64,000 nt of DNA from Chitinivibrionales bacterium (GTDB lineage: Bacteria > Fibrobacterota > Chitinivibrionia > Chitinivibrionales > WJMI01), in assembly GCA_014728015.1 (NCBI GenBank), contig WJMI01000305.1, forward strand, positions 6,192 through 70,191, read 5' to 3'. The notes under the pieces are model-generated. The model was not told where the DNA came from and did not search any database. It saw only the letters and a program-made list of their open reading frames with translations. Shown here piece by piece: positions 24,810 to 48,386 of this stretch (within the stretch, counting starts at the first letter, position 1; every line of letters begins with the position of its first letter). The translations under genes were made by a program, and so were the position numbers.

Positions 24810-26015
24810 ATGTCTCAAAGACTCGAATTCTTTTCGGCTGGAGAGCCCCTTCCAAAAGCCCGAACTCCAGTACTCCGCATTGCTGCCCGCTTTTTCCCAA
24901 GGCGTTGTTCGAAGGCTCTGGCGGCAGTCATTGCCGCCGCAGCGATGAGCGCATTCGGCGAATTCTCGGCTACCGTTTCCGAGGTAGACGGCGACATTGA
25001 TGTGGTACTCGAGAATGCCGTGTTCAAATGCACATACGGGCCGGTGTCGAAATTCTATACCGACCAAGACGAGACCTGTATCAAGGAGCTGGTTGTCAAC
25101 GGCGGGAACGATGTTGTCGGCCGGTTCTACATGGATGCCATGGTCAAAAACGAGGAACACGATCGCGGCGCGCTCAACCACGCGGAAGTCGTTGTCGATG
25201 ATGCATCGGAAAAAACGGTCCAGCTCGAGTGGGACGGGAGCGCGGTGGTGCAGCGGGTGACAATGTATCCCCACAAACCGTATCTCAAGATCGATTACTA
25301 CCGCTACTACATGTATGTGCGGGACTTCCCCGAGAAAACAGGGGGAACGCCCATTGTATATGGGGCGAATGACTGGTGCCGGGTTGACGGAAGCAATCCT
25401 TTCGGCGAGGGCATTTTTCCACGGAGCTACTACCGTCCGGAGATGGGCGATCCGGCTGATGGAGGTTCGTTGAACTATGCCGGATGGTTTATCATGGGGA
25501 CGCTTTCGGGCAGCGCCGGGTTCGGACGTCTACTCCCTGTCAAGCACATGAGCGTTATCAAGCTGCTCGATCCGCACAAAGGGTATGAGTTCTATCCGCA
25601 CTGGGTAACGAAAGGGTCCCGCCAGCCGTTTACGTCTATCCTGTACATCATTACGGGCGGAGAGGATGAGCTTTTCACGCAGGGCATGCTTCTTGCCGAA
25701 AACACCGAGGCCGATCCGCCGGCTATTGACCTTCCGGAGGTGGGCGCCATCGGCAGGGCGCCTGCGCACAAAGCCCGGCCAACCGCGATAGCGGCGACAT
25801 ACAAGTCCGGAGCGGTGCTGGTGAAGGTTGTATCACCCGGGCCGCACAGCATTCGCCTGGTTGATCTCAAGGGGGCGACGATTATGCATCGAACCACACA
25901 GGGTAACCATACCTATCGGGTTTCGCTCGACAATGTTGCAGCCGGCATGTACTTGATGCGCGTCAAAGCCACGGACAAAGTCGTGAACAAGATAATCGTG
26001 CATCACGGAAGGTAG
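24810..26015 (+). CDS. Secreted protein of unknown function (family U, copy 1) with T9SS C-terminal domain
   Basis: 401 aa. Paralog of 42353-43540, sharing VLEN..FKCTYG.V.K.YTD..ET.I.E, YMDA.V...E.DRG, DGG.L.Y.GWFI.G, PVKH.SVIK.L. Tail: IRLVDLKGATIMHR...AAGMYLMRVKATDKVVNKIIV. No motif I can assign. Confidence 0.5.
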   Translation: MSQRLEFFSAGEPLPKARTPVLRIAARFFPRRCSKALAAVIAAAAMSAFGEFSATVSEVDGDIDVVLENAVFKCTYGPVSKFYTDQDETCIKELVVNGGNDVVGRFYMDAMVKNEEHDRGALNHAEVVVDDASEKTVQLEWDGSAVVQRVTMYPHKPYLKIDYYRYYMYVRDFPEKTGGTPIVYGANDWCRVDGSNPFGEGIFPRSYYRPEMGDPADGGSLNYAGWFIMGTLSGSAGFGRLLPVKHMSVIKLLDPHKGYEFYPHWVTKGSRQPFTSILYIITGGEDELFTQGMLLAENTEADPPAIDLPEVGAIGRAPAHKARPTAIAATYKSGAVLVKVVSPGPHSIRLVDLKGATIMHRTTQGNHTYRVSLDNVAAGMYLMRVKATDKVVNKIIVHHGR

Positions 26016-26124
26016 GAGTTGCTGCAAACCGGAGCAATGTCTCCGCAAATGTGAGGGTAGTAACCGACATATGGTCAAGCACGCGAATACCGGCTATATA
26101 GTCCGTGTTTGCAGGGAGGAAACA

Positions 26125-28134
26125 ATGGACGCTGCTCGCATGACACTTTGCATGATTGTATTTGCCCTGGTTCCCTGCCTTGCGGAACCTGTCCTTACAG
26201 AGTTTTCCCGGACCGGGTACGAGGCTTGGGACGGTATTACCGACAAATCGAGTGCCCCTTATACCGAACGGGCCCTCCATTATGACATCGACTGGCAGCC
26301 CACGCAACTATGGGACGGGTACAATCAGGATGAATTCATGTATGTCCGGACCTTCTGGTGTGACGGCGGCTATAACCGCGATGATTTCTTGTCGTTCAAG
26401 ACTTCGCGCGACATCACCGTATACCTCTCGTTTCCCCGGTATGATCCTCGCGACCATGGTCCTTGGAACCCCGATCCTATCGTGAGCGAGAACGCGTCGG
26501 AGCATCTCGCTACGCATCCGGTCTGGCTTGTACAGCGCGGATTTGAAAAAAGAGGCAAGATGCTCCATATCGTGGAAGTCGAACACGATGTGTACGAACG
26601 AACGTACACGGCAGGGGAAACCGTCCGGCTTGGAGGGTGCGGGGGAAGGACCGAAATGTACCACATATTCGTGAAGACCGGCGCGCATGACCCCAAGCCT
26701 TGGACGCCTGCAAAGACGCCCGACAACTGGCAAGAGAACCTTCCCGAACCGGTCCTCTCGGAGCATCAGGGATGGATTGATTTCTATTACCACTGCTGGG
26801 AAATGGCTGAAAGCAAAAAGGTGCGGCGTCCGGGTGTCGGCACCGAAGGCATGGTATTCTGCTTCGATGATGCGCACAGCGGGCAGTTCACGTGGACCTG
26901 GGACCAGGTTTGGGTGAGCACGTTTGCCAAATACTGGCAGGGCGCTCATGATGTAATCGGCCATTATATGAATGGTATCGACGTGCTATACAGCGTGCAG
27001 TATGACGACGGATACATCCCGTACATGTGGGGCACGTGGGGAGACCCAACGAGGGTTCAGGCGCCCATCCTGAGCCTGGCGGAATGGGTTTGCTACCAAC
27101 ACACGGCTGATACCGCGCGGCTTCATCGTGTGCTTCCTGTACTGCGTAAATACTTCTTCAATGTAAGACGCTTGCACGGGCAGTACTATGACGGACCATA
27201 CAGCGCCAGTTTCATCGGCAACGGCATGGACAACCGGTATAACGGACGGCGGATTATCGATTTGACCGGGCAGCAGGCAATGAATGCCCTGCTGCTCTCA
27301 CGGCTGTACGGGGTCATCAGTGACAGCGAGAATTCCGAGTTGTTTCACCGGGAATGGGAATTCCTGCGTGAGATTATCAACGACAAGATGTGGCACGAGG
27401 AAAACCGATTCTATGAAGACCTGGCCAATTTGACAGGTGACGGCTTGCGGACAACCTGGACGCTGGCATCATACTGGCCGCTCATTGCCGAGGTTGCTCC
27501 GCCCGAACGCGCCGCGGCAATGAAAGACCATTTGTTCGACCCTGATAACTTTGCCACGCCCCATATGCCGCCATCATCAGGTAAAAAATGCCCGAACTAC
27601 GATCCCAACGGTTGCTATTGGCAGGGCTCTGTATGGGTACCGACGGCTACCATGGTAATTCGCGGACTGATTGTGTGCGGATTCGAAGATGCAGCGCGAG
27701 AGATAGCCTTGAACCATCATGGAGCCCTCTACCGTACCTGGCTAAGTGATCATACAGTGTATGAAAACTACTGGCAGGGCGGCGATGGTCCGGCGACCGG
27801 CGTGAACCCGAAACCCGGATTCGCGGGATGGAGTGCGGTAACGCCTATTGCCACGCTTATCGAAGTGATCATCGGCATCCGAACCAATGCGCCGGAAAAC
27901 AGAATGTTCTGGCGGCCTCGATTGACCGAAGAGAACGGCATCCGCAACCTCAAATGGGGACCCGGCTATTCGCGGGTGGTGGACATGATCGCGGCCGAGC
28001 GATCCAGCGCAAGCGACCCGATCACGATTACGATCAACAGCAATCATGCATTTACGTTGGAGGTCGATGCGGGATTTGCGACGAAAACGATCGATGTCGC
28101 CGCCGCCGATGGTCAGGTGTTTACGATTGAATGA
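26125..28134 (+). CDS. GH63-like (alpha/alpha)6-barrel glycoside hydrolase, no T9SS tail (copy 1)
   Basis: DDGYIPYMWG, QAPILSLAEW, IDLTGQQAMNALLLSRL. CYWQGSVWVPTATMVIRGL resembles the W(R/Q)G(P/S)(I/V)W motif of GH63/MOGS-type enzymes. Also VYENYWQ and FAGWSAVTPIATLIE. Start at the ATG at 26125, after AGGGAGGAAACA. Confidence 0.7.
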   Translation: MDAARMTLCMIVFALVPCLAEPVLTEFSRTGYEAWDGITDKSSAPYTERALHYDIDWQPTQLWDGYNQDEFMYVRTFWCDGGYNRDDFLSFKTSRDITVYLSFPRYDPRDHGPWNPDPIVSENASEHLATHPVWLVQRGFEKRGKMLHIVEVEHDVYERTYTAGETVRLGGCGGRTEMYHIFVKTGAHDPKPWTPAKTPDNWQENLPEPVLSEHQGWIDFYYHCWEMAESKKVRRPGVGTEGMVFCFDDAHSGQFTWTWDQVWVSTFAKYWQGAHDVIGHYMNGIDVLYSVQYDDGYIPYMWGTWGDPTRVQAPILSLAEWVCYQHTADTARLHRVLPVLRKYFFNVRRLHGQYYDGPYSASFIGNGMDNRYNGRRIIDLTGQQAMNALLLSRLYGVISDSENSELFHREWEFLREIINDKMWHEENRFYEDLANLTGDGLRTTWTLASYWPLIAEVAPPERAAAMKDHLFDPDNFATPHMPPSSGKKCPNYDPNGCYWQGSVWVPTATMVIRGLIVCGFEDAAREIALNHHGALYRTWLSDHTVYENYWQGGDGPATGVNPKPGFAGWSAVTPIATLIEVIIGIRTNAPENRMFWRPRLTEENGIRNLKWGPGYSRVVDMIAAERSSASDPITITINSNHAFTLEVDAGFATKTIDVAAADGQVFTIE

Positions 28135-28198
28135 CAAAACGATCGCACAACCCCGCAGGGGCACGACGTCGTCATGCCCCGACGGGGAATCCGCAACG

Positions 28199-30943
28199 AT
28201 GGGACCACTGATGAAACAAATCATGCTCCCCGCAATCCTGATGGCGACAATCGGCGCAACGCATGCAGACACTGTCTACGTGGCCCCCGGCCACGACCTC
28301 GGCGATGCTATCGGCAAAAACCCCCCTCACACCACGTTCATAATCAGGCGCGGGGTGCACAAAAACGCGAAAATTCACGGGCCAAAAACCGGACAGGCGT
28401 TCATCGGGGAGGACGGCGCCGTACTCGAGGGCGACACGGGCATCATGTACTGCGTCAACGGGTGGCGGCAGAACGGCGAAGGCGACAGTGTGACTGTCCG
28501 TAATCTGGAAATACGCGGGTACTGGTACGAAGACTGTGGTGGCGCGGCCGTCCTGATGGAGCCCTTCAGCAAGGGATGGGTGTTCGAAGACAACGAGGTG
28601 CACCACAACGGCGGCGTGGGTGTGATATTCGGCAGTCATTGCGTCATCCGTAATAACTACATCCATCACAACACCATGCAGGGCGTGGGATGCGGCGGCA
28701 ACTGCGGCGAGGGGTACAAGGGCAATCTTAGCCCGTGCAGCAAACACGCGGTATTCGAAAACAACGAAGTGGCCTGGAACAACTGGGACGCGGAGCGTGA
28801 TACGAATTTCTGCGAATGGGGGCACACGGGAGGCGGCAGCAAGTTCGCGGTTGCGTTGGGGCTCGTGGTGAAAAACAACTGGTCGCATCACAACTGGGGA
28901 CCGGGATTCTGGACCGATGTGGCGAACGACAGCATCGTATACGAAGGCAATCTCGTGGAGCACAATATTGCCATGGGCATTTTCCACGAGATCAGCTGGG
29001 GTGTTGAAATCCGATGCAATATCTCGCGGCAGAACGGCGTATGGGTGGATTTCGGCGGGGACCAGCAGATCCTGCTTACTTCGGCCGGGCCCGCCGAGGT
29101 CTGGGGGAATATCGTCGAAGTCAACGCGCTTCACGGCGGCGGCATAACCTGGGGAGAAAACCGGCGGCTTCCGTTCCGGTCGCAGGATATCAGCGTGCAT
29201 CACAATACGATCATTTTTCCCGGCGAAGTCGGCACGGCCATCGGCGCGGGGTGCCAGTGGTATGATTCGTGCGCCATGTTTTACGAAACAAACTGCTGGA
29301 ACCATTCGATAGACTACAACACATATTATGTACCGAGCAAAGACTGCAGACTGTGGCGGTTCAATGGACCGTCCTACCACGGCCTTACATGGGATGATTT
29401 CACGGCGCTTCACGAACTGGGCGCACATGGGACGGTCATCGAAACTGATGATTTCCCTTCGGCGGACGATATCGAATGTCCGGACGGTTGTGAAGACATT
29501 CTGTCGCCCAGCATGATCATGTCGCCGCGGCGGCTTACGGTGCGCGCCGCCGCGGGCGGCGGCAATCCCGTGCCGCACACCATGACGATCAGAAACAAAG
29601 CCAAGGGGCGACTCGATCGCATTGAGACAAACGTGGTGTATCATGACGGCGACGGGTGGCTCGGCATTTCTACACCGGACGGCGCCGGCAATATGCAGCG
29701 AATTGTCAACAGCGTTGATGTGTCCGGCCTTGCAACCGGGGAGTATCTGGCGCGCGTGGAAATCACGTGCGACAACGCAACACCGTCCTACATGAAATAC
29801 CTCGTGTGGCTGTATGTGGAAGACGGTGGATCATCGGCAGGACATGTCGTGGTGACACCGGATAATGCAACCGTCTCACCGGGTCAGACGGTTCGCTTCG
29901 ATGCCGTTGTTGTTGACCGGCTCGGCAATCCGCTTTCTGTCCAGCCAGCTGTCACGTGGACTGTGGATGGCGAAGGGAGCGTGGCCGCCGGCCTGTATAC
30001 CCCGCCCTCGACGCTGGGAGGGCCGTATACGATTACCGCATCGGCGGGTTCTGCCGGCGGCTCGGCTGAGGTTGCGGTGATGCGCGCCCTGCCGCTGGTG
30101 CAGGACGGGAGTTTTACTGATATTCAAGGCACGAGCCAAACCGGATTCATCAAGAAACTCCTTACAATACGCGGTTCGGATGACATGCCGGTTGCGGTTG
30201 TAGGTGACGGCAATACGGGAGTTGACAATGTGCTCGTGCCCGGCATCGGAGGCCTGTGGCCGATTCCGGGAGACAAGATCGCCATTCTCGGCACTGATTA
30301 CACATGGAGCATCGAATACGAAGATGATGCCTTCTGGAATGACAACGTCCGTGAAAAGGCTCATTACTGGGTAGATTACTTTTTCATTGCGCTGGTGAGC
30401 CCCGTCGAACGGCAGGTACGGATCGGCACCCGTCACATGGGGGGAATCAAGATATGGCTCAATGGTAATCCCGTACATCAGAACGGCTGGTGGGACGGAT
30501 GGGGAACCGAGGCTACCGTACCGGTGACGTTGAAGAAAGGCCACAACCGCCTAATGCTGAAACTCACCGCCGGTGACGGCGATAGCTATTTCGCGGTGCA
30601 GGTTGCTGAAGAGAACGGAAGGCTGCTTACGGATCTCCAGTACTCTCTTGGCGGTGACAACGAGCAGGACCTCGTTGCGCGCGCATCGGCTCGCGTTCCT
30701 CGGAATCGTTTGGCAGGGCTTATGGTGCGACGCGCAGCGGGGCGATTCCTTGTTGACGTTTCTGGCGCCGGAGGGGGCCACGAGCTGCAACTGTTGACAT
30801 TGAGCGGACGGACCATCATGAAACGCCGGGGCGCAGGCAATGCCGTGTATTCGGTCCCGCGCGCCGTTTTGGCGCGGGGTGTGTATCTGGTGTCTTTGCG
30901 AAGCAGCACGGGCGTGATTCGCACGAAGCTGGTCGCGTATTGA
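28199..30943 (+). CDS. Secreted beta-helix protein type 2 with Big_2, beta-sandwich and T9SS C-terminal domains (copy 1)
   Basis: FIGEDGAVLEGD, NLEIRGY, VHHNGGVGVIFG, IRNNYIHHNTMQGVG, NNWSHHNWGPGFWTDVANDSIVYEGNLVEHNIAMGIFHEISWGVEIRCNISRQNG. Big_2-like: VVVTPDNATVSPGQTVRFDAVVVDRLGNPL. Tail: LLTLSGRTIMKRR...ARGVYLVSLRSSTGVIRTKLVAY. Start is either 28199 or 28211. Confidence 0.7.
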   Translation: MGPLMKQIMLPAILMATIGATHADTVYVAPGHDLGDAIGKNPPHTTFIIRRGVHKNAKIHGPKTGQAFIGEDGAVLEGDTGIMYCVNGWRQNGEGDSVTVRNLEIRGYWYEDCGGAAVLMEPFSKGWVFEDNEVHHNGGVGVIFGSHCVIRNNYIHHNTMQGVGCGGNCGEGYKGNLSPCSKHAVFENNEVAWNNWDAERDTNFCEWGHTGGGSKFAVALGLVVKNNWSHHNWGPGFWTDVANDSIVYEGNLVEHNIAMGIFHEISWGVEIRCNISRQNGVWVDFGGDQQILLTSAGPAEVWGNIVEVNALHGGGITWGENRRLPFRSQDISVHHNTIIFPGEVGTAIGAGCQWYDSCAMFYETNCWNHSIDYNTYYVPSKDCRLWRFNGPSYHGLTWDDFTALHELGAHGTVIETDDFPSADDIECPDGCEDILSPSMIMSPRRLTVRAAAGGGNPVPHTMTIRNKAKGRLDRIETNVVYHDGDGWLGISTPDGAGNMQRIVNSVDVSGLATGEYLARVEITCDNATPSYMKYLVWLYVEDGGSSAGHVVVTPDNATVSPGQTVRFDAVVVDRLGNPLSVQPAVTWTVDGEGSVAAGLYTPPSTLGGPYTITASAGSAGGSAEVAVMRALPLVQDGSFTDIQGTSQTGFIKKLLTIRGSDDMPVAVVGDGNTGVDNVLVPGIGGLWPIPGDKIAILGTDYTWSIEYEDDAFWNDNVREKAHYWVDYFFIALVSPVERQVRIGTRHMGGIKIWLNGNPVHQNGWWDGWGTEATVPVTLKKGHNRLMLKLTAGDGDSYFAVQVAEENGRLLTDLQYSLGGDNEQDLVARASARVPRNRLAGLMVRRAAGRFLVDVSGAGGGHELQLLTLSGRTIMKRRGAGNAVYSVPRAVLARGVYLVSLRSSTGVIRTKLVAY

Positions 30944-31013
30944 CGGTGGACGGCGTTGCGGACGGGGGGAAATTGCCGGAAGCAATCGTCTTGTTTTTCG
31001 GGGGGGAGGAAAC

Positions 31014-32210
31014 ATGCGAACAGGTCTTGCGGCAATCGCCATGCTCATAGCTGCCGCCATATGCCGTGCCGATGCGCCGCGCATCATCTTCGATACCGAC
31101 ATGTGCTCGGATATCGACGATATCGCGGCCCTGGGCATGCTCCACGCGCTTGCAGACAACGGCGAGTGCATCCCGCTGGGCATGATGCTTTCAAGCGGCA
31201 ATGATGACGGCATCGCCGCGATCAGCGCGATGAACCACTACCATAACCGTCCAGACCTTCCGATCGGTTCATTCAAGGGCGCGGGAAAGAGCTCGCCCAA
31301 CTACTACGGCGCAATCCCGGATCGATTTCCCTGCGCCGTGCGCACCCGCGATGATGTTCCCGATGCCGTGTCGGTCTATCGCCGGATACTCGCGTCCCAG
31401 CCGGATGCCAGTGTTACCATTGTCACAGTGGGCTACCTGCACAACATTCGGGACCTTCTGCAATCCGGGGCGGACCAGCACAGCGATCTTAGCGGTGTCC
31501 AGTTGGTCGCGGCAAAAGTCAAGGAGTGGTCGTGCATGGGAGGCAGTTTCTGGGATGCCAACAACTGGAGTTTCGAATGGAACCTGTGCGAGGACGGTGC
31601 AGCAAGCAAGTATGCAATCGATCATTTCCCGTCGGCGATCGTGTTCAGCGGGTATGAAATCGGTGATCCCGTGAAGACCGGCGTGGGGTACGGTGACCGC
31701 ACGCCGGCGGAAAATCCCGCCCGCGCCGTATACGATCCGAATTACCCGGACTGGCCCCGGCAGGAGGGGCACTGCAGTTTCGATCAGACCGCGGTGTTGC
31801 ATGCGGCGCGCGGCATTCGTAACTACTGGGATGCCAACACGACCGGCTATTGCGAAGTCAACGATGCAGGATACGTGTTCTGGCACGATTCGCCGGACAA
31901 AGAGCACGGATATCTGATTCGCAAAATGGACAACAACGAGCTTGCGGGGATTATCAACGAACTCATGTTTCAGCAGCCGTTTGAGGGCGAAAGCGACCCG
32001 GTCCCGGTGGTGAGGTATGGCGGGCCGAATGACGGCTCACGCCGGGATGCCGCGCTTGTCTCGCCTGCCCGAGTATTCGACCTGCGGGGACGGGCTCTCG
32101 GCGGTGTCCCAACGGTTCGAGGGGACAAGCAGGCTCTTGGGTTTGGGGTGTACGTCGCGGATGCCTTTTCAGGGAATGCAAAAGCAGCACGGGAATTGGT
32201 GCTTCGTTGA
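31014..32210 (+). CDS. Secreted IUNH (nucleoside hydrolase)-fold protein with T9SS-like tail, copy 2
   Basis: APRIIFDTDMCSDIDDIAALGMLHALADNGECIPLGMM. Collinear with 8085-9335 (VTIVTVGYL.NI..LLQS, VKEWSCMGG, FSGYEIG). SD: GGGGGGGAGGAAAC. Confidence 0.7.
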   Translation: MRTGLAAIAMLIAAAICRADAPRIIFDTDMCSDIDDIAALGMLHALADNGECIPLGMMLSSGNDDGIAAISAMNHYHNRPDLPIGSFKGAGKSSPNYYGAIPDRFPCAVRTRDDVPDAVSVYRRILASQPDASVTIVTVGYLHNIRDLLQSGADQHSDLSGVQLVAAKVKEWSCMGGSFWDANNWSFEWNLCEDGAASKYAIDHFPSAIVFSGYEIGDPVKTGVGYGDRTPAENPARAVYDPNYPDWPRQEGHCSFDQTAVLHAARGIRNYWDANTTGYCEVNDAGYVFWHDSPDKEHGYLIRKMDNNELAGIINELMFQQPFEGESDPVPVVRYGGPNDGSRRDAALVSPARVFDLRGRALGGVPTVRGDKQALGFGVYVADAFSGNAKAARELVLR

Positions 32211-32336: not shown

Positions 32337-32413
32337 GTTAACCAATCAAAACTGACTTCGCGCTCCGTTCCCCTTATTATCTCTGACAGCACTATCAGGC
32401 CAAGGGGGAAACC

Positions 32414-34774: not shown

Positions 34775-34886
34775 GCGGCATCGGGGACCGCTTCGGCAAA
34801 CGCCGCCTGCATCGCGGCCTGGCGTATCACATGCAGGCGGAATGAGGAATTCTCCGCCTACGGCGCAGCAGAAGGGGGCCGACGCT

Positions 34887-35883
34887 ATGCGGAAACAGCA
34901 TCAGACGGATCACTCCCTGTTCCTGGCATTCATAATCATCTCGCATGTCGCCTCTCTCAGCTTCGCCCTCGATAACGGCCTGTGCCTGACCCCGCCCATG
35001 GGCTGGAACTCGTGGAATTGTTTCGGCTGGCACGGACACGATCAGGACAAGTGCCTTGCCGTTGCCGACAGTATGGTGTGCTTCGGGTTGCTGGATGCTG
35101 GTTATGAGTACTTCTGCCTGGACGACGGGTGGCAGGATTCCAACAACGACACGGATACACTGCGCCCCAACTCGCGATATTCGCGGGGGATGAAGGCATT
35201 CGGCGATTCGCTGCACGCACGCGGGTTCCAATTCGGTATCTACACCACATGCGGCATGAGCCGCGGCCGCGAGAGCGCGCATTGCTGGAAACGACATTCG
35301 CAACATGTCTCAGCAGACCGTGGAAATCCTGACCAACAGGGATCTCATTGCCATTAACCAGGATTCGCTGGGACTGCAGTGCTATCCGGTGAGCGGTGAG
35401 AAGGGGCAGCAGCAGGTGTTTGTCAAGCCACTCATGAAGGGCGATTGCGCGATTGCGTTCTTCAACCCGACCGACGGCTCACAGAGCATGAGCGTGAACT
35501 GGAGTGAATTCGATTGGCCCGAAAACGGCGCGCGGGTGAGAGACCTGTGGGCCGGGCAGGAGCTTGGCATCATTGAAGGCGGGTATTCTGTGACGGTTGA
35601 AGCTCACGGTACGGTTGTGCTGAGGCTGTCGCCGACGAGCCCCCAACAGACCATTTCATCCAAGAGACATGTCCCGCGGTCGAGCCGTTTCAAGGCCACG
35701 GCAGCATCGTTTCCCGCCTCTGGCGAATGCCAGATCAGCCTCACCGACCTGTCAGGACGCACGGTTTACACAGCAGAGAACGTTCACGCCCAGCACATGT
35801 TCCGTCCCCACTCCTCCGGAGTGTACGTACTTTGCGTGACCGGCTCGAATGGCTCGTTCAGCAAGAGAATCGTTATCAGGTAG
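34887..35883 (+). pseudogene. GH27 alpha-galactosidase pseudogene: internal out-of-frame deletion removing the catalytic core; T9SS tail retained
   Basis: 5' ORF: LDNGLCLTPPMGWNSWNCFG...YEYFCLDDGWQ...GFQFGIYTTCGM, then nonsense. 3' ORF, in another frame: (IAGNDIRN)MSQQTVEILTNRDLIAINQDSLG... plus the tail. The segment that would carry the YLKYDNC nucleophile and the acid/base Asp is absent. Junction is near 35255-35280. Confidence 0.75.
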
Positions 35884-35917
35884 GCCGAAAGGCCCACGGG
35901 GGGGCCTGATAAGAGGG

Positions 35918-35953
35918 GCCCACGGTTCGAGAGAGCCGTGGGCTTTCTTTCTT
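35918..35953 (+). terminator. Rho-independent terminator after the GH27 pseudogene
   Basis: GCCCACGG / CCGTGGGC 8-bp stem with a 10-nt loop, followed by TTTCTTTCTT. Confidence 0.65.
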
Positions 35954-42114: not shown

Positions 42115-42352
42115 GTATTTCCCTTTTGAGCTGGTTTCCGAGATTTGAAAGGGACGCATACCGGCGCCCGGCTCTTGTCTCTTACTGCCTTTCGCAAGGC
42201 TCCTGCGTGCAATATACAGTAAATAGAACGGAATAGTAGCACAATAATCAGAAGCAGGCCATCTATTTCTATAACTTCGCTCATGGGGAGGTTCAGGGCA
42301 TTCTGAATCAGCCGGTTCTTACAGGTCGATTAATACCGAAGGAGTCTCTTCC

Positions 42353-43540
42353 ATGTCTTCACAAACCTTCAATACCGCGTACTTCAAAGCCGCACTGTGC
42401 GCAGCGGCCCTTCTGGCGGCCTTGTTCGCAGTGCCATCTCACGGGGAGTGGGGCTCAATATCTGTCAGCAAGGATGCTTCGGACAATTTTCAGGTGGTGC
42501 TCGAGAACAGCAAATTCAAATGCACCTACGGCACGGTCACCAAACCCTACACCGACATCAAGGAAACCACAATCAGGGAATTCTCGGTGAAAGCCGCGGG
42601 CGGAGCAGACCAGGTAGGCGCTCCCGGGTATATGGATGCACAGGTCATGTCCATGGAAAAGGACCGCGGGGTGTGTATCTACGCGGATGTTGTCAGGGAT
42701 GGCGCTGACACAAAGACCGTACGCATGGTATGGGACAACGGCCAGGTGTTTCAGGATATCACTATGACCAAGGACTCTCCTGTTCTCAAGATGGACTACT
42801 ATAACTACGGGATTACGATCCGCGATTTTGTCATGCCCGGCGGAAACGAGTGGGGCGAGTATTCGATTTACGGCGGCGGATCGTACACGCGCAAGGAAGG
42901 CATTCTGACCCTGTCCGGATATCAGTATCCCGCATCGTACTATCGTGATGCCGACGGCACCAATGACCCGGCCGACGGCGGCGCTCTCAGCTACAACGGA
43001 TGGTTCATCATCGGCGTGTACGCCGACAACGGCCAGGGGTACGTGCGAGTGATGCCGGTGAAACATATCAGTGTGATAAAGGCGCTCTACGGCCGCGGCT
43101 GGGAGTGGGCCCCGCACTACGGCACCAAAGGCGACCCGGTTGCGTTTACCGGCTACCTTGGGATCGTTTCCGGCGGCGGCGGCGAGATCCAGTCACTTGG
43201 CAAGTCTGCTGCCGACAATGCGCCGGGTATGGAGCCGGCAACCGTACCCCCGCTTCCGATAACGCCTACTATTGGAAGTACCATGCTCCAGAAGAAACGC
43301 GCGCCAGCCATGCGCATACAGCGTACCGGCGGGTATGTCGCCGTATCTGTCGCCGCTCTGTCAAAGCATCAGCTTCGGGTATTCACCCCGAACGGCAGAA
43401 CGGTCTACGCGGCACATGCACAGGGGACCACGACGTATCGGGTACCGGTACGGACGATGGCAAACGGGCTGTATGTATTCCAGGTCAAAACAGAAGCGAA
43501 GGTGTTCAACAAGACCCATGTCATGCTTCACTACAGATAG
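42353..43540 (+). CDS. Secreted protein of unknown function (family U, copy 2) with T9SS C-terminal domain
   Basis: 395 aa, collinear with 24810-26015. Tail: LRVFTPNGRTVYAAH...ANGLYVFQVKTEAKVFNKTHVM. SD: GAAGGAG. Confidence 0.5.
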   Translation: MSSQTFNTAYFKAALCAAALLAALFAVPSHGEWGSISVSKDASDNFQVVLENSKFKCTYGTVTKPYTDIKETTIREFSVKAAGGADQVGAPGYMDAQVMSMEKDRGVCIYADVVRDGADTKTVRMVWDNGQVFQDITMTKDSPVLKMDYYNYGITIRDFVMPGGNEWGEYSIYGGGSYTRKEGILTLSGYQYPASYYRDADGTNDPADGGALSYNGWFIIGVYADNGQGYVRVMPVKHISVIKALYGRGWEWAPHYGTKGDPVAFTGYLGIVSGGGGEIQSLGKSAADNAPGMEPATVPPLPITPTIGSTMLQKKRAPAMRIQRTGGYVAVSVAALSKHQLRVFTPNGRTVYAAHAQGTTTYRVPVRTMANGLYVFQVKTEAKVFNKTHVMLHYR

Positions 43541-43561
43541 AAACCATAAGAGAGTTTTATC

Positions 43562-45481
43562 ATGAAATCGAAAAGCATACTTACAGCCGTTGTTGCGGCG
43601 CTTTGTCTGTGCTCCACCGCGCTGGCGGAGGAAATATTCACCGACTTCAACCGCAACGGGTACCGCGCATACGATGGTCTTCAGGTCGGGGACTGGCTCT
43701 ACGTTGACCTGAGCTACGGGGTTACCGATATGTGGAGCGGGTATGCCCCCGACAATTACATGTGCATCAAGACATATTTCTCCGACAAGTTTTACTGGGA
43801 CAAGGATTTTCTGATCTTCACCGTGCACCGCGATGTGACCGTGCTGATCGGCTGGCCGCAGGCCAGCAAGCACATGCCGGACTGGCTCCAGGACGGGTGG
43901 GTGGACAACGGCAAGCGAGGGGCTACAGGCTCATATACGCTCACATTCTACGAGAAGGAGTTCTCATCGGGTGATCGCGTGCAGCTCGGGGGCAATGAAG
44001 AGGCGTCGTTTATCATGTATACGATTCAGGTCGAGACCGGGCCGCACGATCCCGCGCCGTGGGTGCAGGAGAACGTGGTGCCCGACACATGGCTCGACGG
44101 CCTTCCGGAGCCGGTGCTGTCCGAGCATACGGGCTGGATAGATTTCTACTACTTCGCATGGGACATGGCCGACACCAAGAAGGTGCACCGTCCTCTGGGA
44201 TGGACTTTCGACGAGGCGCATGGGAGCGACGTGTCGTACCTGTGGGACTATGTCTGGATGACCTATTTCACCAAGTATGTGCAGGATGCCCATCCGCTCA
44301 TCACTGATTTCATGCTCGGTATCGACCAGATGTATGCCGACATGTATCCCGATGGATACGCGCCGTTCAAGTGGGGCTACCGCCGCGATCCGTTCTGGAC
44401 CCAGGCGCCCATTTTCCCCATGGCCGAATGGCAGTGCTACATTCACACGGCCGATACCGATCGTGTCAAACGGGTCCTTCCGTACCTCGAGAAGAACTTC
44501 TGGAATGTAAAGCGGTTCTGGGCAACGTACTGGGGGCCGCAGTATTTCGATGCCATGATCGGCAACGGCATGGACAATCGTCCCAACGGTGCGCGCATCA
44601 TCGATCTCACGGGGCAGCAGGCAATCAATGCCCTGATAATTTCGCGTCTTGCCGAGGCTGCCGGCGATACCGACCGAGAGTACAAGTTCAACAAGGAATA
44701 CAATTTCATCAAGGATGTTATCAACAATAAGATGTGGCATGACGGTGATAAGTTCTACACCGACATGAAGAACCGTACCGGCGACGAGCTGAAATCGGGT
44801 GACTGGACACTGGCATCCTACTGGCCGCTCATTGCTGAAGTTGCGCCGCAGGATCGTGTCGACCATATGGTGGCGCACCTCAACGATCCGGACAATTTCA
44901 AAACCGCGCATCGCCCGCCCTCAACCGGCAAGAAGAGCTGGGCCTACGATCCCGGAGGTAAGTACTGGCAGGGGAGTGTGTGGGTACCGACGGCCACCAT
45001 GGTGATCCACGGCCTGACCGCGTGCGGCGAGCATGATCTCGCGCGCGAGATCGCGGTCAATCACCACTACTACACCTACGAGACCTACCTGCAGACAGGC
45101 ACGATTCTCGAGAACTACTGGCAGGAAGGCGTGGGCAAGCCCACGGCCGGAAGCTCGATGACCGACTTCGTCGGCTGGAGCGGCATTACGCCGACCGGCA
45201 CGCTTATCGAATACGTGATCGGTATAAAGGTCAATGCACCCGAGAATACTGTCACCTGGCGCCTTCGGCTGACAGAACAGAACGGCATGCGAAACCTGAA
45301 ATGGGGTCCCGGCTTTGCGCATGTAATGGATCTGGTTGCTGACGCCAGAAGCAGTGAGAGCGACCCTGTGACTGTTAGAGCAAACAGCAATCATGCATTC
45401 AAACTTGTAGTTGATGCCGGCTTCAAAACAAAGACGTTTGATGTGGCAGCGGCCAATGATCAGGTATTCGTGGTTCAATAG
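43562..45481 (+). CDS. GH63-like (alpha/alpha)6-barrel glycoside hydrolase, no T9SS tail (copy 3)
   Basis: Collinear with 26125-28134: LPEPVLSEHTGWIDFYYFAWDMADTKKV, IDLTGQQAINALIISRL, KYWQGSVWVPTATMVIHGL, LENYWQ, FVGWSGITPTGTLIE. Confidence 0.7.
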   Translation: MKSKSILTAVVAALCLCSTALAEEIFTDFNRNGYRAYDGLQVGDWLYVDLSYGVTDMWSGYAPDNYMCIKTYFSDKFYWDKDFLIFTVHRDVTVLIGWPQASKHMPDWLQDGWVDNGKRGATGSYTLTFYEKEFSSGDRVQLGGNEEASFIMYTIQVETGPHDPAPWVQENVVPDTWLDGLPEPVLSEHTGWIDFYYFAWDMADTKKVHRPLGWTFDEAHGSDVSYLWDYVWMTYFTKYVQDAHPLITDFMLGIDQMYADMYPDGYAPFKWGYRRDPFWTQAPIFPMAEWQCYIHTADTDRVKRVLPYLEKNFWNVKRFWATYWGPQYFDAMIGNGMDNRPNGARIIDLTGQQAINALIISRLAEAAGDTDREYKFNKEYNFIKDVINNKMWHDGDKFYTDMKNRTGDELKSGDWTLASYWPLIAEVAPQDRVDHMVAHLNDPDNFKTAHRPPSTGKKSWAYDPGGKYWQGSVWVPTATMVIHGLTACGEHDLAREIAVNHHYYTYETYLQTGTILENYWQEGVGKPTAGSSMTDFVGWSGITPTGTLIEYVIGIKVNAPENTVTWRLRLTEQNGMRNLKWGPGFAHVMDLVADARSSESDPVTVRANSNHAFKLVVDAGFKTKTFDVAAANDQVFVVQ

Positions 45482-45737
45482 TCCTATGGACGATGAAGCT
45501 CGAAATTCAGAACATGATAGGGGCACGTGTGCGGATTGCGGATCGGGGAGCCGCACACGGGCCCTTCCATGTCTTTGAGCGGCAGCGACTTGTGTCCTAA
45601 TTGGCCGAGCAACAACAGCCACAACAACCTTCTGGAGACGTTCTACACAGATGTGGACCGATATATTGCTTTGAGAGGCATTTCACAATCTGCCTGCCGT
45701 CTTCTTGCGGCAAAATTATTGACCGGGGGGAACTCGT

Positions 45738-48386
45738 ATGAGACTGAATCTTTCCATACTGCTGACCGCTTTTGCCACAGTATCGACACTGTTGGCCGCC
45801 GAAGTTGTCATCAATCCGGGCGACGACTGGGGTGCGGCCATCTCCAACAACCCCGCCGGCACGGTATTCATTATCAAGGCCGGTATCCATCCTGACCCGG
45901 AAATCAGCGATGCCAAAAACGGCATGCAGTTCATCGGAGAGGACGGTGCCATTGCGCAGGGCGACACCAGCGGCATGTATTTCGCCACCGGCTACGGACC
46001 CAACGGCAAGATTGAAGATGTTGTTATCAAGAACATCGAGATTCGCGGCTATGGTCTTGACAGAGACGGCAACGTTGGGTATTGCGACGGCGGCCCGCTT
46101 TCGGTGCATGACAGCAAGAACTGGCTTCTCGAAGAACTCGAGGTCCATCACTGCGGCGGAACCGGGATTACCACCGGTGAAGGCACCATCGTCAGGAACT
46201 GCTGGGTGCATCATAATTTTCAGCAGGGATTCGGCGGCAAGTTCAGCGGCGCCACTGTCGAGGGGTGCGAGAACGGGTACAACAATGTTGTCATCGACGG
46301 CGTCGACAGCAACTACTGCGCGTGGGAGCATTCAGCCGGCGGCAGCAAGTGGGCCATCTGTTCCACCCTGGTGGTCAAGAATTGCTGGACTCACCATAAC
46401 TACGGGCCCGGCTGGTGGACCGATATCTCGAACGAGGACATCACCTATACCGGCTGTCTGGTCGAAGAGAACGTTTCCATGGGGATATTCCATGAAATAA
46501 GCGGCAACGCCACTATCAACTGTAATATCTCGCGCAACAACGGTATCGGTCCCAACTCAGGATCCAATTTTCAACTTCACGTAGTGTCTTCGGGTCCCAC
46601 GGAGTTATGGGGCAATATCATGGATGTGCATGCATCGGGCGGCGCCGGATACCAGGTGACCGAGAACGGCCGCGAGTACCTGGCCCAGGATGTCGATTTT
46701 CATCACAATATCATTGTATATCGCCATACCACCGGCCCGGCAGTCGGCATGGGCTGCCAGATAGGCGGCGGGTGCGATGCCGTGTACAACGACAACGCGC
46801 AAAACATCGATTTTCACGACAACACCTACTACGTTCCCGATGCCAGCGCCGAGCTCTGGCAGTGGGACGTGGGCGACTGCGTGGACTTCACTACCTTCAA
46901 GACATATCACAGTTTCGGGCGCGGCAGCGAGGTGATCGAAACCGGCGATTTTCCGGATATCGAGGATCTCGATTGCCCGACCGGGTGCGAGGACGTGCTC
47001 GCGCCTGAGATTATCCTGAGGAACCGGCGCATGCATTTCGAGATCGGCCAGGGCGGCAGCGCATCGCCGCAGGTCGTTTCGGTCGGCAACATGACCATGG
47101 GCACGCTTGCCGATGTGGAAACCGATATCTCGTACGTGAACGGCAGCGGATGGCTCAATGTCGCGCGAAGCGGCTCGGGAAACACCCAGAAACTGACTAA
47201 TACGATCGACGTTTCCGGCGTGAGCGCGGGAGACTACAGCGCCAAGGTGCGCGTGTCGGCATCGAATGCCGACTACGTTCCGTGGTACTGGGTGCATATG
47301 AAGGTGACCGGCGAATCACCGGCACTTACCTCGTTTGACATCGTTCCGTCAAACGCGGTCTGTTCTCCCGAACAGAGCATCAAATTCATCGCCACGGCCC
47401 TTGACCAGTGGGACAATCCCCTGGCCGATCAGCCGTCGGATATCTCATGGTCGGTGACCGGCGACGGGTCCGTATCGAACGGCACGTATACGGCGGGCAC
47501 GGAAATCGGCGCCCATACCCTGACCGTTTCATCGGGAGGTGTATCCACCGAGCAGCCGGTGCGCGTGCTTAAGGCCGACCCGCTGGACATGTCGGAGAAT
47601 ATCAAGGACTTTCTGGTGCTGTGCGCGCCGGGCGGCTCGCCCAAGCTGAATGTGAGCAATTACGCGGGATCGAGCACGCATGTCATGGACGATGAGCACC
47701 TCCTGACACCTGCGCCGGGCGACAAGGTGACGGTTGGCGGCACGGACTACACCTGGACAATCATGCACGACGATGACGGTCAGTGGCATGATGATGCCGG
47801 CGGCGGCGAGTGGATAGCGTACTTCGCGATAACGGTCTTGAGCACAAAGGACCAGTGGGTCAGGTATAATGTCAGGCACGCGGGCGGCATGCGGATCTAC
47901 TCGAACGGCCTGAAGGTGTACGGGTATAATTCGTGGGACAATCGCCGGGCTGTCGCGAGCGATCCCGCGCTGCTCGAGCGGGGCGCCAACCAGGTCATAT
48001 TCAAGCTGGCAAGCAATACGTACCCCCGGTTCTCCGCGCACATTGATGATGCCCAATCCGGCGGGCTTCTCACCGATCTGTACTACACGCTCGACGATGC
48101 CGCGGGCGGCGACCTGACAATCAGCGGGCCGATGCTCAGCCGCGCGATGCGTCCCCTGGGCATCAGTGTCCGGCGGAGCGCCGGCAGGTATGTTCTCGAT
48201 GTCGCGGGCGTGGAAGGGTCTCACGAAGTGCGCGTGCTGAGTCTCAATGGACGGACCGTGTTCGTGCGACGCGGCATGGGTGAAGCGGCCTACATGATCC
48301 CGCGGAGCAAAATGGCATCCAGCGTATACGTGGTGTCGGTCAGGGCCGGCGAAAAGGTCCTGCGCAAGCGGTTCATCGGTTACTGA
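45738..48386 (+). CDS. Secreted beta-helix protein type 2 with Big_2, beta-sandwich and T9SS C-terminal domains (copy 2)
   Basis: Collinear with 28199-30943: FIGEDGAIAQGD, NIEIRGY, KNCWTHHNYGPGWWTDISNEDITYTGCLVEENVSMGIFHEISGNATINCNISRNNG. Tail: VLSLNGRTVFVRR...SSVYVVSVRAGEKVLRKRFIGY. SD: GGGGGGAACTCGT. Confidence 0.7.
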   Translation: MRLNLSILLTAFATVSTLLAAEVVINPGDDWGAAISNNPAGTVFIIKAGIHPDPEISDAKNGMQFIGEDGAIAQGDTSGMYFATGYGPNGKIEDVVIKNIEIRGYGLDRDGNVGYCDGGPLSVHDSKNWLLEELEVHHCGGTGITTGEGTIVRNCWVHHNFQQGFGGKFSGATVEGCENGYNNVVIDGVDSNYCAWEHSAGGSKWAICSTLVVKNCWTHHNYGPGWWTDISNEDITYTGCLVEENVSMGIFHEISGNATINCNISRNNGIGPNSGSNFQLHVVSSGPTELWGNIMDVHASGGAGYQVTENGREYLAQDVDFHHNIIVYRHTTGPAVGMGCQIGGGCDAVYNDNAQNIDFHDNTYYVPDASAELWQWDVGDCVDFTTFKTYHSFGRGSEVIETGDFPDIEDLDCPTGCEDVLAPEIILRNRRMHFEIGQGGSASPQVVSVGNMTMGTLADVETDISYVNGSGWLNVARSGSGNTQKLTNTIDVSGVSAGDYSAKVRVSASNADYVPWYWVHMKVTGESPALTSFDIVPSNAVCSPEQSIKFIATALDQWDNPLADQPSDISWSVTGDGSVSNGTYTAGTEIGAHTLTVSSGGVSTEQPVRVLKADPLDMSENIKDFLVLCAPGGSPKLNVSNYAGSSTHVMDDEHLLTPAPGDKVTVGGTDYTWTIMHDDDGQWHDDAGGGEWIAYFAITVLSTKDQWVRYNVRHAGGMRIYSNGLKVYGYNSWDNRRAVASDPALLERGANQVIFKLASNTYPRFSAHIDDAQSGGLLTDLYYTLDDAAGGDLTISGPMLSRAMRPLGISVRRSAGRYVLDVAGVEGSHEVRVLSLNGRTVFVRRGMGEAAYMIPRSKMASSVYVVSVRAGEKVLRKRFIGY

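What the first reader, a model, noticed from the sequence alone, without database searches (positions are those of the whole stretch)
24810..48386. Ancient segmental duplication of a three-gene cassette: unknown protein U - GH63-like - beta-helix type 2
Genes 24810-26015 / 26125-28134 / 28199-30943 and 42353-43540 / 43562-45481 / 45738-48386 have the same order and orientation. Each pair is collinear, with by eye roughly half or more of the residues identical.

In both copies U and the beta-helix protein carry a T9SS tail, while the GH63-like enzyme has only a signal peptide. This suggests a fixed division of labour: extracellular attack by U and the beta-helix, then periplasmic trimming by GH63.

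Only the second cassette has its own divergent tandem-wHTH regulator (40588-42114).
Basis: seen in the sequence. Interest (0 to 1): 0.55.

Follow-up and report, generated by a model that had tools for sequence, protein, structure and literature searches.

The report
Duplicated three-gene glycan-degradation cassette
A sugar-polymer-degrading bacterium known only from a metagenome carries two old, diverged copies of the same three-gene set, which is an ordinary kind of gene-family growth, although two of the three proteins belong to families nobody has characterised.

Summary
Genes 24810-26015 / 26125-28134 / 28199-30943 and 42353-43540 / 43562-45481 / 45738-48386 are collinear homologues. Synonymous sites are saturated. 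In trees with outside homologues each pair is sister (GH63-like 100%, beta-helix 100%, U 78% bootstrap). The most economical reading is an old block duplication within this Chitinivibrionales lineage.

Homology stops at the three genes. An earlier-branching GH63-like paralogue (32414-34774) and beta-helix paralogue (50148-51746) also lie in the window.

U and the beta-helix proteins carry T9SS C-terminal domains. The two cassette GH63-like proteins have only signal peptides. However, the third GH63-like paralogue has PA14 plus a T9SS tail, so the division of labour is not fixed for the family.

The GntR+sugar-binding regulator next to cassette 2 is real. A regulator-U divergent pair also occurs in another MAG, so cassette 2 probably keeps the ancestral layout.

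U is an unannotated roughly 260-aa beta-supersandwich domain family with at least 225 clusters at 50% identity. The substrate is unknown. Overall this is an ordinary paralogous expansion built partly from uncharacterised parts.

The parts
24810..26015 (+). U1: secreted protein made of a signal peptide, a roughly 260-aa beta-supersandwich domain from an unannotated family, and a T9SS C-terminal domain
   Evidence: 41% identical to U2. The only library hit is TIGR04183/Por_Secre_tail. The exhaustive HMMER search finds 225 clusters for this domain. The AF2 model has pLDDT 87.
26125..28134 (+). GH63-like 1: signal peptide, a roughly 190-aa N-terminal domain seen only in the two cassette copies, and a six-hairpin MGH1-like/GH63/GH37-type catalytic domain. 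It has no T9SS tail. The longest ORF starts at 26071.
28199..30943 (+). BH1: signal peptide, right-handed beta-helix domain, Ig-like domains, a roughly 180-aa beta-rich domain and a T9SS C-terminal domain. The longest ORF starts at 28046.
40588..42114 (-). Regulator divergent from cassette 2, with wHTH(s) of GntR type plus a Peripla_BP_3 sugar-binding domain. The longest ORF reaches 42159.
   Evidence: It has paralogues at 694-2295, 48502-50061 and 14595-16073. It is 37% identical to the regulator that sits divergent from a U homologue in L027.
42353..43540 (+). U2: paralogue of U1 with the same architecture
43562..45481 (+). GH63-like 2: paralogue of GH63-like 1 with the same N-terminal domain and no T9SS tail
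45738..48386 (+). BH2: paralogue of BH1 with the same multidomain architecture and a T9SS tail
32414..34774 (+). GH63-like 3: earlier-branching paralogue made of PA14, the six-hairpin catalytic domain and a T9SS tail
   Evidence: sister to the cassette pair at 99% bootstrap. Its tail is 46-49% identical to the tails of BH1 and BH2.
50202..51746 (+). BH3: earlier-branching beta-helix paralogue made of the beta-helix domain plus a T9SS tail only. It lies divergent from regulator 48502-50061(-).
   Evidence: sister to BH1+BH2 at 94%.
48502..50061 (-). Second GntR/Peripla_BP_3 regulator, convergent with BH2 and divergent from BH3
31014..32210 (+). IU-nucleoside-hydrolase-like secreted protein directly after BH1. 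Its paralogue at 8085-9449(-) is likewise next to a beta-helix gene.
35915..35946 (+). The only strong intrinsic-terminator-like hairpin (14-bp stem) downstream of cassette 1. It suggests one long transcription unit running from U1 to the GH27 remnant.

Best explanation
The window comes from a metagenome-assembled Chitinivibrionales (Fibrobacterota) genome. It is a glycan-degradation island made of repeated gene families.

**The duplication.** Within the island, one three-gene unit was copied as a block in this lineage long ago. The unit consists of:
- U, a T9SS-exported beta-supersandwich protein;
- a six-hairpin glycosidase of the GH63/GH37/MGH1-like superfamily, exported by Sec only;
- a T9SS-exported multidomain right-handed beta-helix enzyme.

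Both copies have stayed intact and keep the residues conserved in their families.

**Regulation.** Cassette 2 keeps what is probably the ancestral layout, in which a divergent GntR+sugar-binding regulator controls it. Cassette 1 lost or never received the regulator. It now heads a longer same-strand gene string: U1, GH63-like 1, BH1, an IUNH-like gene, GH63-like 3 and a GH27 remnant, ending at a terminator at 35915.

**Inferred mechanism.**
- The beta-helix enzyme, and possibly U, act on a polysaccharide at the cell surface.
- Oligosaccharides enter the periplasm.
- There the GH63-like enzyme removes a terminal alpha-linked sugar.
- The two copies have most likely diverged in substrate detail and in regulation.

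**Shown versus inferred.** Homology, collinearity, sister relationships, domain content, the presence or absence of export tails, and regulator adjacency are shown. Cellular locations, enzyme activities, substrate, operon structure and subfunctionalisation are inferred.
For: **Homology and collinearity.**
- Shown: **Age.**
- dS is saturated and dN is 0.63, 0.43 and 0.60 for the three pairs.

**Trees.**
- (GH63-1, GH63-2) has 100% bootstrap and GH63-3 joins at 99%, with Verrucomicrobiota-type homologues outside.
- (BH1, BH2) has 100% and BH3 joins at 94%.
- (U1, U2) has 78% among 148 domains.
- The N-terminal domain of GH63-like 1 and 2 occurs in no other protein returned from 5.8 billion.

**Cassette distribution.**
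- None of 14 genome loci holding U has the cassette.
- None of 8 metagenome loci holding the beta-helix family has it either.

**Conserved residues retained.**
- U: 19 and 18 of 21. GH63-like: 50 and 51 of 54. Beta-helix: 47 and 45 of 62.
- The catalytic base of YgjK (E727) aligns with the family's invariant Glu.

**Export tails.**
-.

**Regulator.**
-.
- The regulator-U divergent pair recurs in L027.
- The closest outside U homologue lies next to an MGH1-like gene.

**Context of outside GH63-like homologues.**
- They lie in glycan-degradation loci.
Against: - The U1/U2 sister grouping is only moderately supported. The U1-U2 distance (0.95) is barely smaller than U2's distance to homologues from other phyla (0.98-1.04).
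- Trees are neighbour-joining on modest samples. Few or no other Chitinivibrionales genomes were available, so 'sister' could hide unsampled donors.
- No flanking non-coding homology or repeat marks the duplication borders.
- GH63-like 3 is T9SS-tailed, so the compartment model is not a family property.
- No TonB-dependent transporter or other importer was recognised beside either cassette.
- In other genomes, neighbours of U include polysaccharide-synthesis genes (GT1/GT4, Wzy_C, methyltransferases). This does not fit a purely catabolic role.
- No activity, substrate or expression data exist.
Confidence: 0.65

Rival explanations
1. Two related cassettes were acquired separately by horizontal transfer from different, unsampled donors and were not duplicated in place.
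For: - Divergence is very deep: dS is saturated and U1-U2 is almost as distant as U2 is from homologues in other phyla.
- Both cassettes sit in GC dips (0.55-0.56) against flanks near 0.60.
- The lineage is poorly sampled.
Against: - Each pair is mutually closest in all public data searched.
- The next closest relatives of the GH63-like and beta-helix pairs are further paralogues in the same window.
- The N-terminal domain of GH63-like 1 and 2 is found nowhere else.
- No mobile-element genes, tRNA genes or flanking repeats were noticed, though these were not searched for systematically.
- Other paralogue pairs in the window show a similar 45-46% identity, which points to in-genome family growth.
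Confidence: 0.12
2. U is not an enzyme. It is a cell-surface glycan-binding or accessory protein, analogous to surface glycan-binding proteins, that hands substrate to the beta-helix enzyme.
For: - The galactose-mutarotase-like supersandwich fold is mostly a non-catalytic accessory domain in GH2, GH31, GH38, GH81 and GH97 and in PL8 and PL17 (one search hits, plus general knowledge).
- The structural matches are weak, with TM no higher than 0.47.
- T9SS type A tails often anchor cargo to the cell surface (general knowledge).
Against: - U is a stand-alone domain in many organisms.
- In multidomain relatives it is usually N-terminal and followed only by binding, spacer or anchor modules (Flg_new_2, FG-GAP, LamG, Ig, CBM6, CBM35, SLH). 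That is the usual layout of a catalytic module.
- The family keeps a set of near-invariant charged or aromatic residues: E24, N25, K53, Y119, D128, W145, Y179, R196, K207 and E216.
- The same fold is catalytic in PL4 lyases and in aldose epimerases.
Confidence: 0.35
3. The cassettes remodel or recycle the organism's own exopolysaccharide or capsule and do not harvest external polysaccharide.
For: In other phyla, U-domain genes lie beside glycosyltransferases, Wzy_C polymerase/ligase genes and C-methyltransferases.
Against: - In this window no synthesis genes are present.
- The surroundings are secreted hydrolase-like proteins and sugar-sensing regulators.
- Outside GH63-like homologues lie with alpha-galactosidases, fucosidases, GH127, GH116 and sulfatases.
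Confidence: 0.12
4. Three separate single-gene duplications happened to end up in the same order and orientation.
For: - The three pairs differ somewhat in divergence (38-50% identity).
- The window holds many independently duplicated families.
Against: - Identical order, strand and tight spacing in both copies.
- The differences in divergence are within what different constraints on different proteins would give.
Confidence: 0.03

Closest known systems
Paralogous polysaccharide-utilisation gene clusters of the FCB group (Bacteroidota PULs; T9SS-dependent glycan degradation in Flavobacterium and Fibrobacter)
   Same: - Clustered secreted glycan-active enzymes.
- T9SS export of the outward-facing enzymes.
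- Sec-only enzymes presumed to be periplasmic.
- An adjacent sugar-sensing regulator.
- Cluster families that grow by duplication.
   Different: - No SusC/SusD pair or other transporter was recognised next to the cassettes.
- The regulator is a GntR-wHTH + Peripla_BP_3 hybrid, not a hybrid two-component system or SusR type.
- Two of the three proteins belong to uncharacterised families.
Glycoside hydrolase family 63 / MGH1-like / GH37 six-hairpin glycosidases (E. coli YgjK, Thermus TTHA0978, processing alpha-glucosidase I, trehalases)
   Same: - Significant Pfam MGH1-like_GH and Trehalase matches.
- A profile match to YgjK at E 2e-23.
- YgjK's catalytic base Glu727 aligns with an invariant Glu.
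   Different: - Only the C-terminal half of the catalytic domain aligns.
- Single sequences find no PDB relative.
- The Pfam GH63 model is below its cut-off for copy 1.
- The N-terminal domain is unique to the two cassette copies.
- The closest relatives are roughly 490-aa unannotated 'trehalase family' proteins of Verrucomicrobiota-type loci.
Galactose-mutarotase-like beta-supersandwich domains (PL4 and PL26 rhamnogalacturonan lyases, GH38 C-terminal domain, aldose 1-epimerases, YidC P1)
   Same: The overall fold class of the U model. Foldseek probability is up to 1.0 with E down to 4e-5.
   Different: - TM-scores are no higher than 0.47 and sequence identity is 7-13%.
- There is no sequence-level relative in PDB, Pfam or NCBIfam.
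- No conserved His corresponds to the epimerase catalytic set.
Right-handed parallel beta-helix carbohydrate-active enzymes (PL1/3/6/9, GH28, NosD/CASH-type)
   Same: - The Pfam Beta_helix model matches above its cut-off.
- A conserved cluster of acidic, His and Asn residues is present (GPGxWTD, GIFHEIS, HHN).
   Different: - No specific PL or GH family model matches.
- A profile search of PDB finds nothing.
- The long C-terminal extension of Ig-like and beta-rich domains is shared only by BH1 and BH2.

Membership tests
Segmental (block) duplication | Same gene order and orientation, with significant pairwise homology for every member | tested here: met
   41%, 50% and 38% identity, E from 2e-75 to 0.
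Segmental (block) duplication | Each pair is mutually closest (sister) when outside homologues are included | tested here: met
   NJ bootstrap is 100% for GH63-like, 100% for beta-helix and 78% for U. Sampling of close relatives is thin.
Segmental (block) duplication | Comparable divergence of all members, consistent with a single event | tested here: inconclusive
   dN is 0.63, 0.43 and 0.60, but dS is saturated, so no clock comparison is possible.
Segmental (block) duplication | Homology of intergenic or flanking DNA, or border repeats | tested here: not met
   Only the shared ribosome-binding site AAGGAGTCT is found. There is no other non-coding similarity. This is expected at such an age.
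Glycoside hydrolase family 63 | Match to the GH63 catalytic-domain model above its curated cut-off | tested here: inconclusive
   PF03200 (cut-off 22.4): copy 1 scores 18.7 (below), copy 2 scores 29.4 and copy 3 scores 53 (above). PF22422 MGH1-like_GH scores 86-104 bits for all three.
Glycoside hydrolase family 63 | Catalytic general base Glu (YgjK E727) | tested here: met
   It aligns with the invariant Glu of 'YENYWQ', which is E565 in the 687-aa ORF.
Glycoside hydrolase family 63 | Catalytic general acid Asp (YgjK D501, motif ESGRDD) | tested here: inconclusive
   HMMER does not align this stretch. The family has an invariant NGMDN motif (D387) at the expected place. The assignment is by motif resemblance only.
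Glycoside hydrolase family 63 | Alpha-glucosidase, mannosylglycerate hydrolase or glucosylglycerate hydrolase activity | not testable with these tools
   This requires an enzyme assay.
T9SS type A cargo | C-terminal sorting domain (TIGR04183 / PF18962) at the extreme C-terminus | tested here: inconclusive
   U1 passes TIGR04183 (25.1, cut-off 23). U2 (17.6), BH1 (21.3) and BH2 (20.8) fall just below it, and all four are below the Pfam cut-off of 27. Position and mutual similarity are consistent: 84-89 bits with a window-derived HMM, which is partly circular. The tail is absent from GH63-like 1 and 2.
T9SS type A cargo | T9SS machinery genes present in the genome | not tested
   None lie in the window and the rest of the MAG was not examined. 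T9SS in Fibrobacterota is general knowledge.
GntR-type wHTH + LacI-type ligand-binding regulator | GntR wHTH and Peripla_BP_3 domains above their cut-offs | tested here: met
   For 40588-42159(-), PF00392 scores 35.0 (cut-off 27) and PF13377 scores 69.3 (cut-off 26.5).
GntR-type wHTH + LacI-type ligand-binding regulator | A second, tandem wHTH at the N-terminus | tested here: inconclusive
   Two GntR stretches or extra wHTH hits are seen in paralogues 694-2295, 14595-16073 and 48502-50061. In 40588-42159 the second wHTH is inferred only from full-length homology to these.
Galactose-mutarotase-like supersandwich (incl. PL4 lyases) | Structural superposition with good coverage | tested here: inconclusive
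   Foldseek E is 4e-5 to 1e-3 and probability is up to 1.0, but TM is no higher than 0.47 and rmsd is 8-16 A.
Galactose-mutarotase-like supersandwich (incl. PL4 lyases) | Catalytic residues of PL4 (Lys/His) or of the epimerases (His/His/Asp/Glu) at equivalent positions | not tested
   No tool was available for residue-level superposition. The family has no near-invariant His.
Right-handed beta-helix CAZymes | Beta_helix repeat model above its cut-off | tested here: met
   PF13229 scores 45.4, 33.8 and 63.1 bits against a cut-off of 25.9.
Right-handed beta-helix CAZymes | Membership of a defined PL or GH family | tested here: not met
   No family-specific Pfam or NCBIfam hit. The profile finds no solved structure.

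The most novel reading that the evidence does not exclude
The U domain is the catalytic module of a so-far undescribed family of glycan-cleaving or glycan-modifying enzymes built on a beta-supersandwich, as in PL4 lyases. The family is widespread in Chloroflexota, Planctomycetota, Armatimonadota and FCB-group bacteria. In this lineage it has become locked into a three-enzyme pathway with a new GH63-clan subfamily and a new beta-helix family. The two copies of that pathway have specialised on different glycans.
Probability: 0.25. Interest if true: 0.6.

Novelty: new member of a known kind. Interest (0 to 1): 0.35.

Why it matters
Growth of glycan-degradation clusters by duplication is well known, so the duplication itself adds little.

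The value lies in the parts. The cassette links three poorly known protein families in a conserved functional unit:
- an unannotated roughly 260-aa beta-supersandwich domain with at least 225 clusters at 50% identity across several phyla;
- a GH63-clan subfamily whose relatives sit in galactose/fucose/sulfate-type glycan loci;
- an uncharacterised beta-helix family.

Two independently retained copies, plus a regulator-U pair and a GH63-like/U adjacency elsewhere, give a guilt-by-association handle for choosing targets in CAZyme discovery.

Tried and rejected
- **Word-indexed searches for U.** The single sequence and a 60-sequence profile returned almost nothing, because the candidate cap was saturated. 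The exhaustive HMMER search was needed.
- **AF2 on two sequences.** The model was unusable at pLDDT 30. It was repeated with 60 sequences.
- **The search for related loci with the 60-sequence alignment.** It failed for lack of a conserved stretch. It was redone with 10 sequences.
- **Biopython bootstrap.** It timed out and was replaced by my own NJ code.
- **PDB sequence searches.** Single GH63-like and beta-helix proteins found nothing. Profiles of the beta-helix and U families also found nothing.
- **Shared operators or palindromes.** A search upstream of U1, U2, BH3 and the regulators found only the ribosome-binding site.
- **Decayed regulator upstream of cassette 1.** A search for a remnant, and for upstream nucleotide similarity, found nothing.
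- **Sigma-70 promoter scan.** It was uninformative, with counts only modestly above shuffles and no hit in the cassette upstream regions.
- **Literature search for Chitinivibrionales.** Nothing on these genes.
- **U as a trans-acting N-domain of the GH63-like enzyme.** GH15, GH63 and GH65 enzymes have N-terminal sandwich domains, so I considered this idea. I rejected it because U is T9SS-exported while the GH63-like protein is not, and because the GH63-like proteins have their own N-domain.

Full report
**Source and setting.** The exact sequences of U1 and the GH63-like proteins are deposited as hypothetical proteins GF418_134xx of a metagenome-assembled 'Chitinivibrionales bacterium' on an 81-kb contig. 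The window has 55-62% G+C. It is densely packed with secreted proteins that end in a roughly 70-80-aa T9SS-type C-terminal domain.

**Check of the observation.**
- The three gene pairs are homologous and collinear. U1 vs U2 is 41% identical over 364 aa (E 2e-75). GH63-like 1 vs 2 is 50% over 672 aa. Beta-helix 1 vs 2 is 38% over 923 aa.
- 'Half or more identical' is therefore right only for the middle gene.
- At the DNA level, only the 3' 1.4 kb of the GH63-like genes is still recognisably similar (64%). Synonymous differences are saturated (pS 0.69-0.74). dN is 0.63, 0.43 and 0.60.
- An all-against-all comparison of 36 window proteins shows that homology between the two regions is limited to exactly these three genes.
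- U1 and U2 share the ribosome-binding sequence AAGGAGTCT and an MS(S)Q start, which supports the start at 24810.

**The window is a mosaic of paralogues.** Apart from the cassette, one search shows:
- three full-length GntR/Peripla_BP_3 regulators at about 35% identity (694-2295, 40588-42159, 48502-50061), plus a more distant fourth (14595-16073);
- two HZS_alpha/PD40 proteins at 46% (2292-5177 and 54175-56934);
- two IU-nucleoside-hydrolase-like proteins at 45% (8085-9449 and 31014-32210);
- pairs 10643-12193 / 12837-14351 and 18643-20640 / 22309-24162, both at 46%;
- a third GH63-like gene (32414-34774) and a third beta-helix gene of the same family (50148-51746).

The cassette duplication is one episode in a general expansion of this island.

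**Phylogenetic test of co-duplication.**
- *GH63-like.* I used 448 aligned columns of the catalytic domain with 16 outside homologues. Copies 1 and 2 are sister at 100% bootstrap. Copy 3 joins them at 99%. The roughly 490-aa homologues of Verrucomicrobiota type are outside.
- The roughly 190-aa N-terminal domain of copies 1 and 2 was covered by no other protein returned from the 5.8-billion-sequence collection.
- *Beta-helix.* I used 345 columns and nine outside sequences from a metagenome scan. BH1 and BH2 are sister at 100%, and BH3 joins at 94%.
- *U.* I used 148 domain sequences from an exhaustive HMMER search. U1 and U2 are sister at 78%. The split is very deep: the U1-U2 distance is 0.95, against 0.98-1.04 from U2 to homologues of other phyla.
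- *Distribution of the cassette.* None of 14 reference-genome loci with a U gene has it. None of 8 metagenome loci with the beta-helix family has it either.
- *Conclusion.* Together with the identical order, this favours one block duplication inside this lineage. Separate acquisition from unsampled relatives cannot be excluded.

**Are both copies functional?** All six ORFs are intact. Of the columns conserved in at least 90-95% of the outside homologues:
- U1 keeps 19 of 21 and U2 keeps 18 of 21;
- the GH63-like copies keep 50 and 51 of 54;
- BH1 keeps 47 and BH2 keeps 45 of 62.

**What the parts are: U.**
- Its only library hit is the T9SS tail.
- A profile of its core finds 225 clusters (50% identity representatives) at E <= 1e-3, and 69 at E <= 1e-30.
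- Many are single-domain secreted proteins of 250-400 aa.
- In 41 multidomain relatives the domain is mostly N-terminal. It is followed by Flg_new_2 (19 of 41), FG-GAP, LamG, Ig-like domains, CBM6, CBM35 or SLH, and once by GH5. No Pfam model covers the U domain itself.
- With a 60-sequence alignment, AlphaFold2 gives a confident all-beta model with a C-terminal helix (pLDDT 87, pTM 0.87).
- Foldseek places it with galactose-mutarotase-like supersandwiches: the GH38 C-terminal domain, PL26 and PL4 rhamnogalacturonan lyases, aldose epimerases, YidC P1 and the GH81 N-domain. The matches are weak (TM <= 0.47, 7-13% identity). The profile finds no solved relative by sequence.
- Near-invariant residues are E24, N25, K53, Y119, D128, W145, Y179, R196, K207 and E216.
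- I infer a carbohydrate-active function and lean towards a catalytic role because of the modular layout. A binding role is a serious rival.

**What the parts are: GH63-like.**
- Pfam MGH1-like_GH (86-104 bits) and Trehalase match all three copies. The GH63 model passes its cut-off for copies 2 and 3 but not for copy 1.
- A family profile matches YgjK (2e-23), Chaetomium glucosidase I, TTHA0978 and trehalases.
- YgjK's catalytic base Glu727 aligns with the invariant Glu of YENYWQ. The acid (D501, ESGRDD) lies in an unaligned stretch. An invariant NGMDN motif is the likely counterpart (this is inference).
- The proteins therefore belong to the GH63/GH37 six-hairpin superfamily. Family membership in the strict sense is not established.

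**What the parts are: beta-helix.**
- The Pfam Beta_helix model matches all three.
- The catalytic-looking domain (about the first 470 aa) has strongly conserved motifs: FIGEDGA, GPGxWTD, GIFHEIS and HHN.
- There is no specific lyase or hydrolase family hit, and no solved relative by sequence.
- BH1 and BH2 alone share a roughly 400-aa extension of Ig-like and beta-rich domains before the tail.

**Localisation.**
- U1, U2, BH1 and BH2 have N-terminal signal peptides and T9SS tails.
- GH63-like 1 and 2 have signal peptides with AxA-type cleavage sites and no tail. A periplasmic location for them is a reasonable inference.
- GH63-like 3, their closest relative, carries an N-terminal PA14 domain and a tail that is 46-49% identical to those of BH1 and BH2. 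The family therefore also works outside the cell.

**Regulation and layout.**
- The regulator 40588-42114(-) has a GntR wHTH plus Peripla_BP_3. It is divergent from U2 across 238 bp.
- Upstream of U1 there is a 100-aa minus-strand ORF with no family hit, and no trace of a regulator.
- In another MAG (L027, GCA_964621685.1), a 512-aa regulator that is 37% identical to 40588-42159 lies divergent from a T9SS-tailed U homologue. The regulator-U pair thus predates or is independent of the duplication, and cassette 2 looks ancestral in layout.
- Downstream of cassette 1 the same strand continues with the IUNH-like gene, GH63-like 3 and a GH27 remnant. The only strong terminator-like hairpin lies at 35915-35946.

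**Hints on substrate.**
- The closest outside U homologue (P0022) follows a partial MGH1-like gene on its short contig.
- The closest outside GH63-like genes lie directly after a roughly 1,200-aa PA14/BPSS1860/sortilin-like protein in three loci (L015, L016, L029).
- Those genes also lie among GH36/GH27 alpha-galactosidases, GH172, GH130, GH2, fucosidases (GH29/GH95), GH127, GH116, sulfatases and a T9SS-tailed Pel9A-like beta-helix protein.
- This suggests a complex, possibly galactose- or fucose-containing heteropolysaccharide, but no more than that.
- Neighbours of U genes in other phyla are mixed: methyltransferases, GT1/GT4, Wzy_C, apiosidase-like, GH88 and GH109.

**Verdict.**
- The duplication is real, old and best explained as a single block event in this lineage.
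- The 'fixed division of labour' and the roles assigned to U and the beta-helix protein remain inference, and the third GH63-like paralogue partly contradicts them.
- As a phenomenon it is an ordinary paralogous expansion of a glycan-degradation cluster.
- Its interest lies in tying together three little-known protein families.

Noticed in passing
window 34842-35883 (+): The GH27 alpha-galactosidase gene is broken. Frame 0 encodes Melibiase_2 positions 1-101. A second frame encodes only the end of the catalytic domain, then Melibiase_C and a T9SS tail. The middle of the catalytic domain, about 130-180 aa, is missing. This is a pseudogene or an assembly error.
   Followed up: partly
window 32414-34774 (+): GH63-like 3 looks chimeric. 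Its PA14 domain is 34% identical to the PA14 that follows the beta-helix domain in outside beta-helix homologues (L018, L019). Its T9SS tail is 46-49% identical to those of BH1 and BH2, including the unusual ...LVAY ending. This suggests domain shuffling between the two enzyme families.
   Followed up: partly
window 694-2295, 14595-16073, 40588-42159(-), 48502-50061(-): Four paralogous regulators of about 500 aa, each with (tandem) wHTH of GntR type plus Peripla_BP_3. Two of them are divergent from secreted-enzyme genes. This is an unusually dense set for 64 kb.
   Followed up: partly
window 2292-9449(-) and 50148-56934(+): Further repeated gene neighbourhoods. Beta-helix genes lie next to IU-nucleoside-hydrolase-like genes (5423-7711 with 8085-9449, and 28199-30943 with 31014-32210). 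Beta-helix genes also lie near HZS_alpha/PD40 proteins (2292-5177 and 54175-56934, 46% identical).
   Followed up: no
window 24285-24587 (-): A 100-aa ORF with an acidic C-terminus lies between gene 22309-24162 and U1, on the opposite strand. It has no Pfam hit. It interrupts the same-strand gene string just before cassette 1.
   Followed up: partly
L002 10001-13668: An Anaerolineales MAG carries three U-domain genes in tandem, so the family also expands locally in other phyla.
   Followed up: no
L015 6299-9949, L016 2309-5959, L029 6387-10004: In Verrucomicrobiota-type loci, a roughly 1,200-aa PA14/BPSS1860/sortilin-like protein always lies directly upstream of the GH63-like homologue. In L029 the two genes overlap. 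This is a conserved gene pair of unknown function.
   Followed up: no
window 59959-61308 (+): A 449-aa protein with a signal peptide, no Pfam hit and a C-terminal ...MFYF ending. It could be an outer-membrane beta-barrel. It is the only candidate porin or transporter seen in the window and is not next to either cassette.
   Followed up: no
window 24000-28000 and 42000-46000: Both cassettes begin in local G+C minima (0.55-0.56), while the flanks are at 0.58-0.62. This could reflect the composition of the encoded proteins and need not indicate foreign origin.
   Followed up: no
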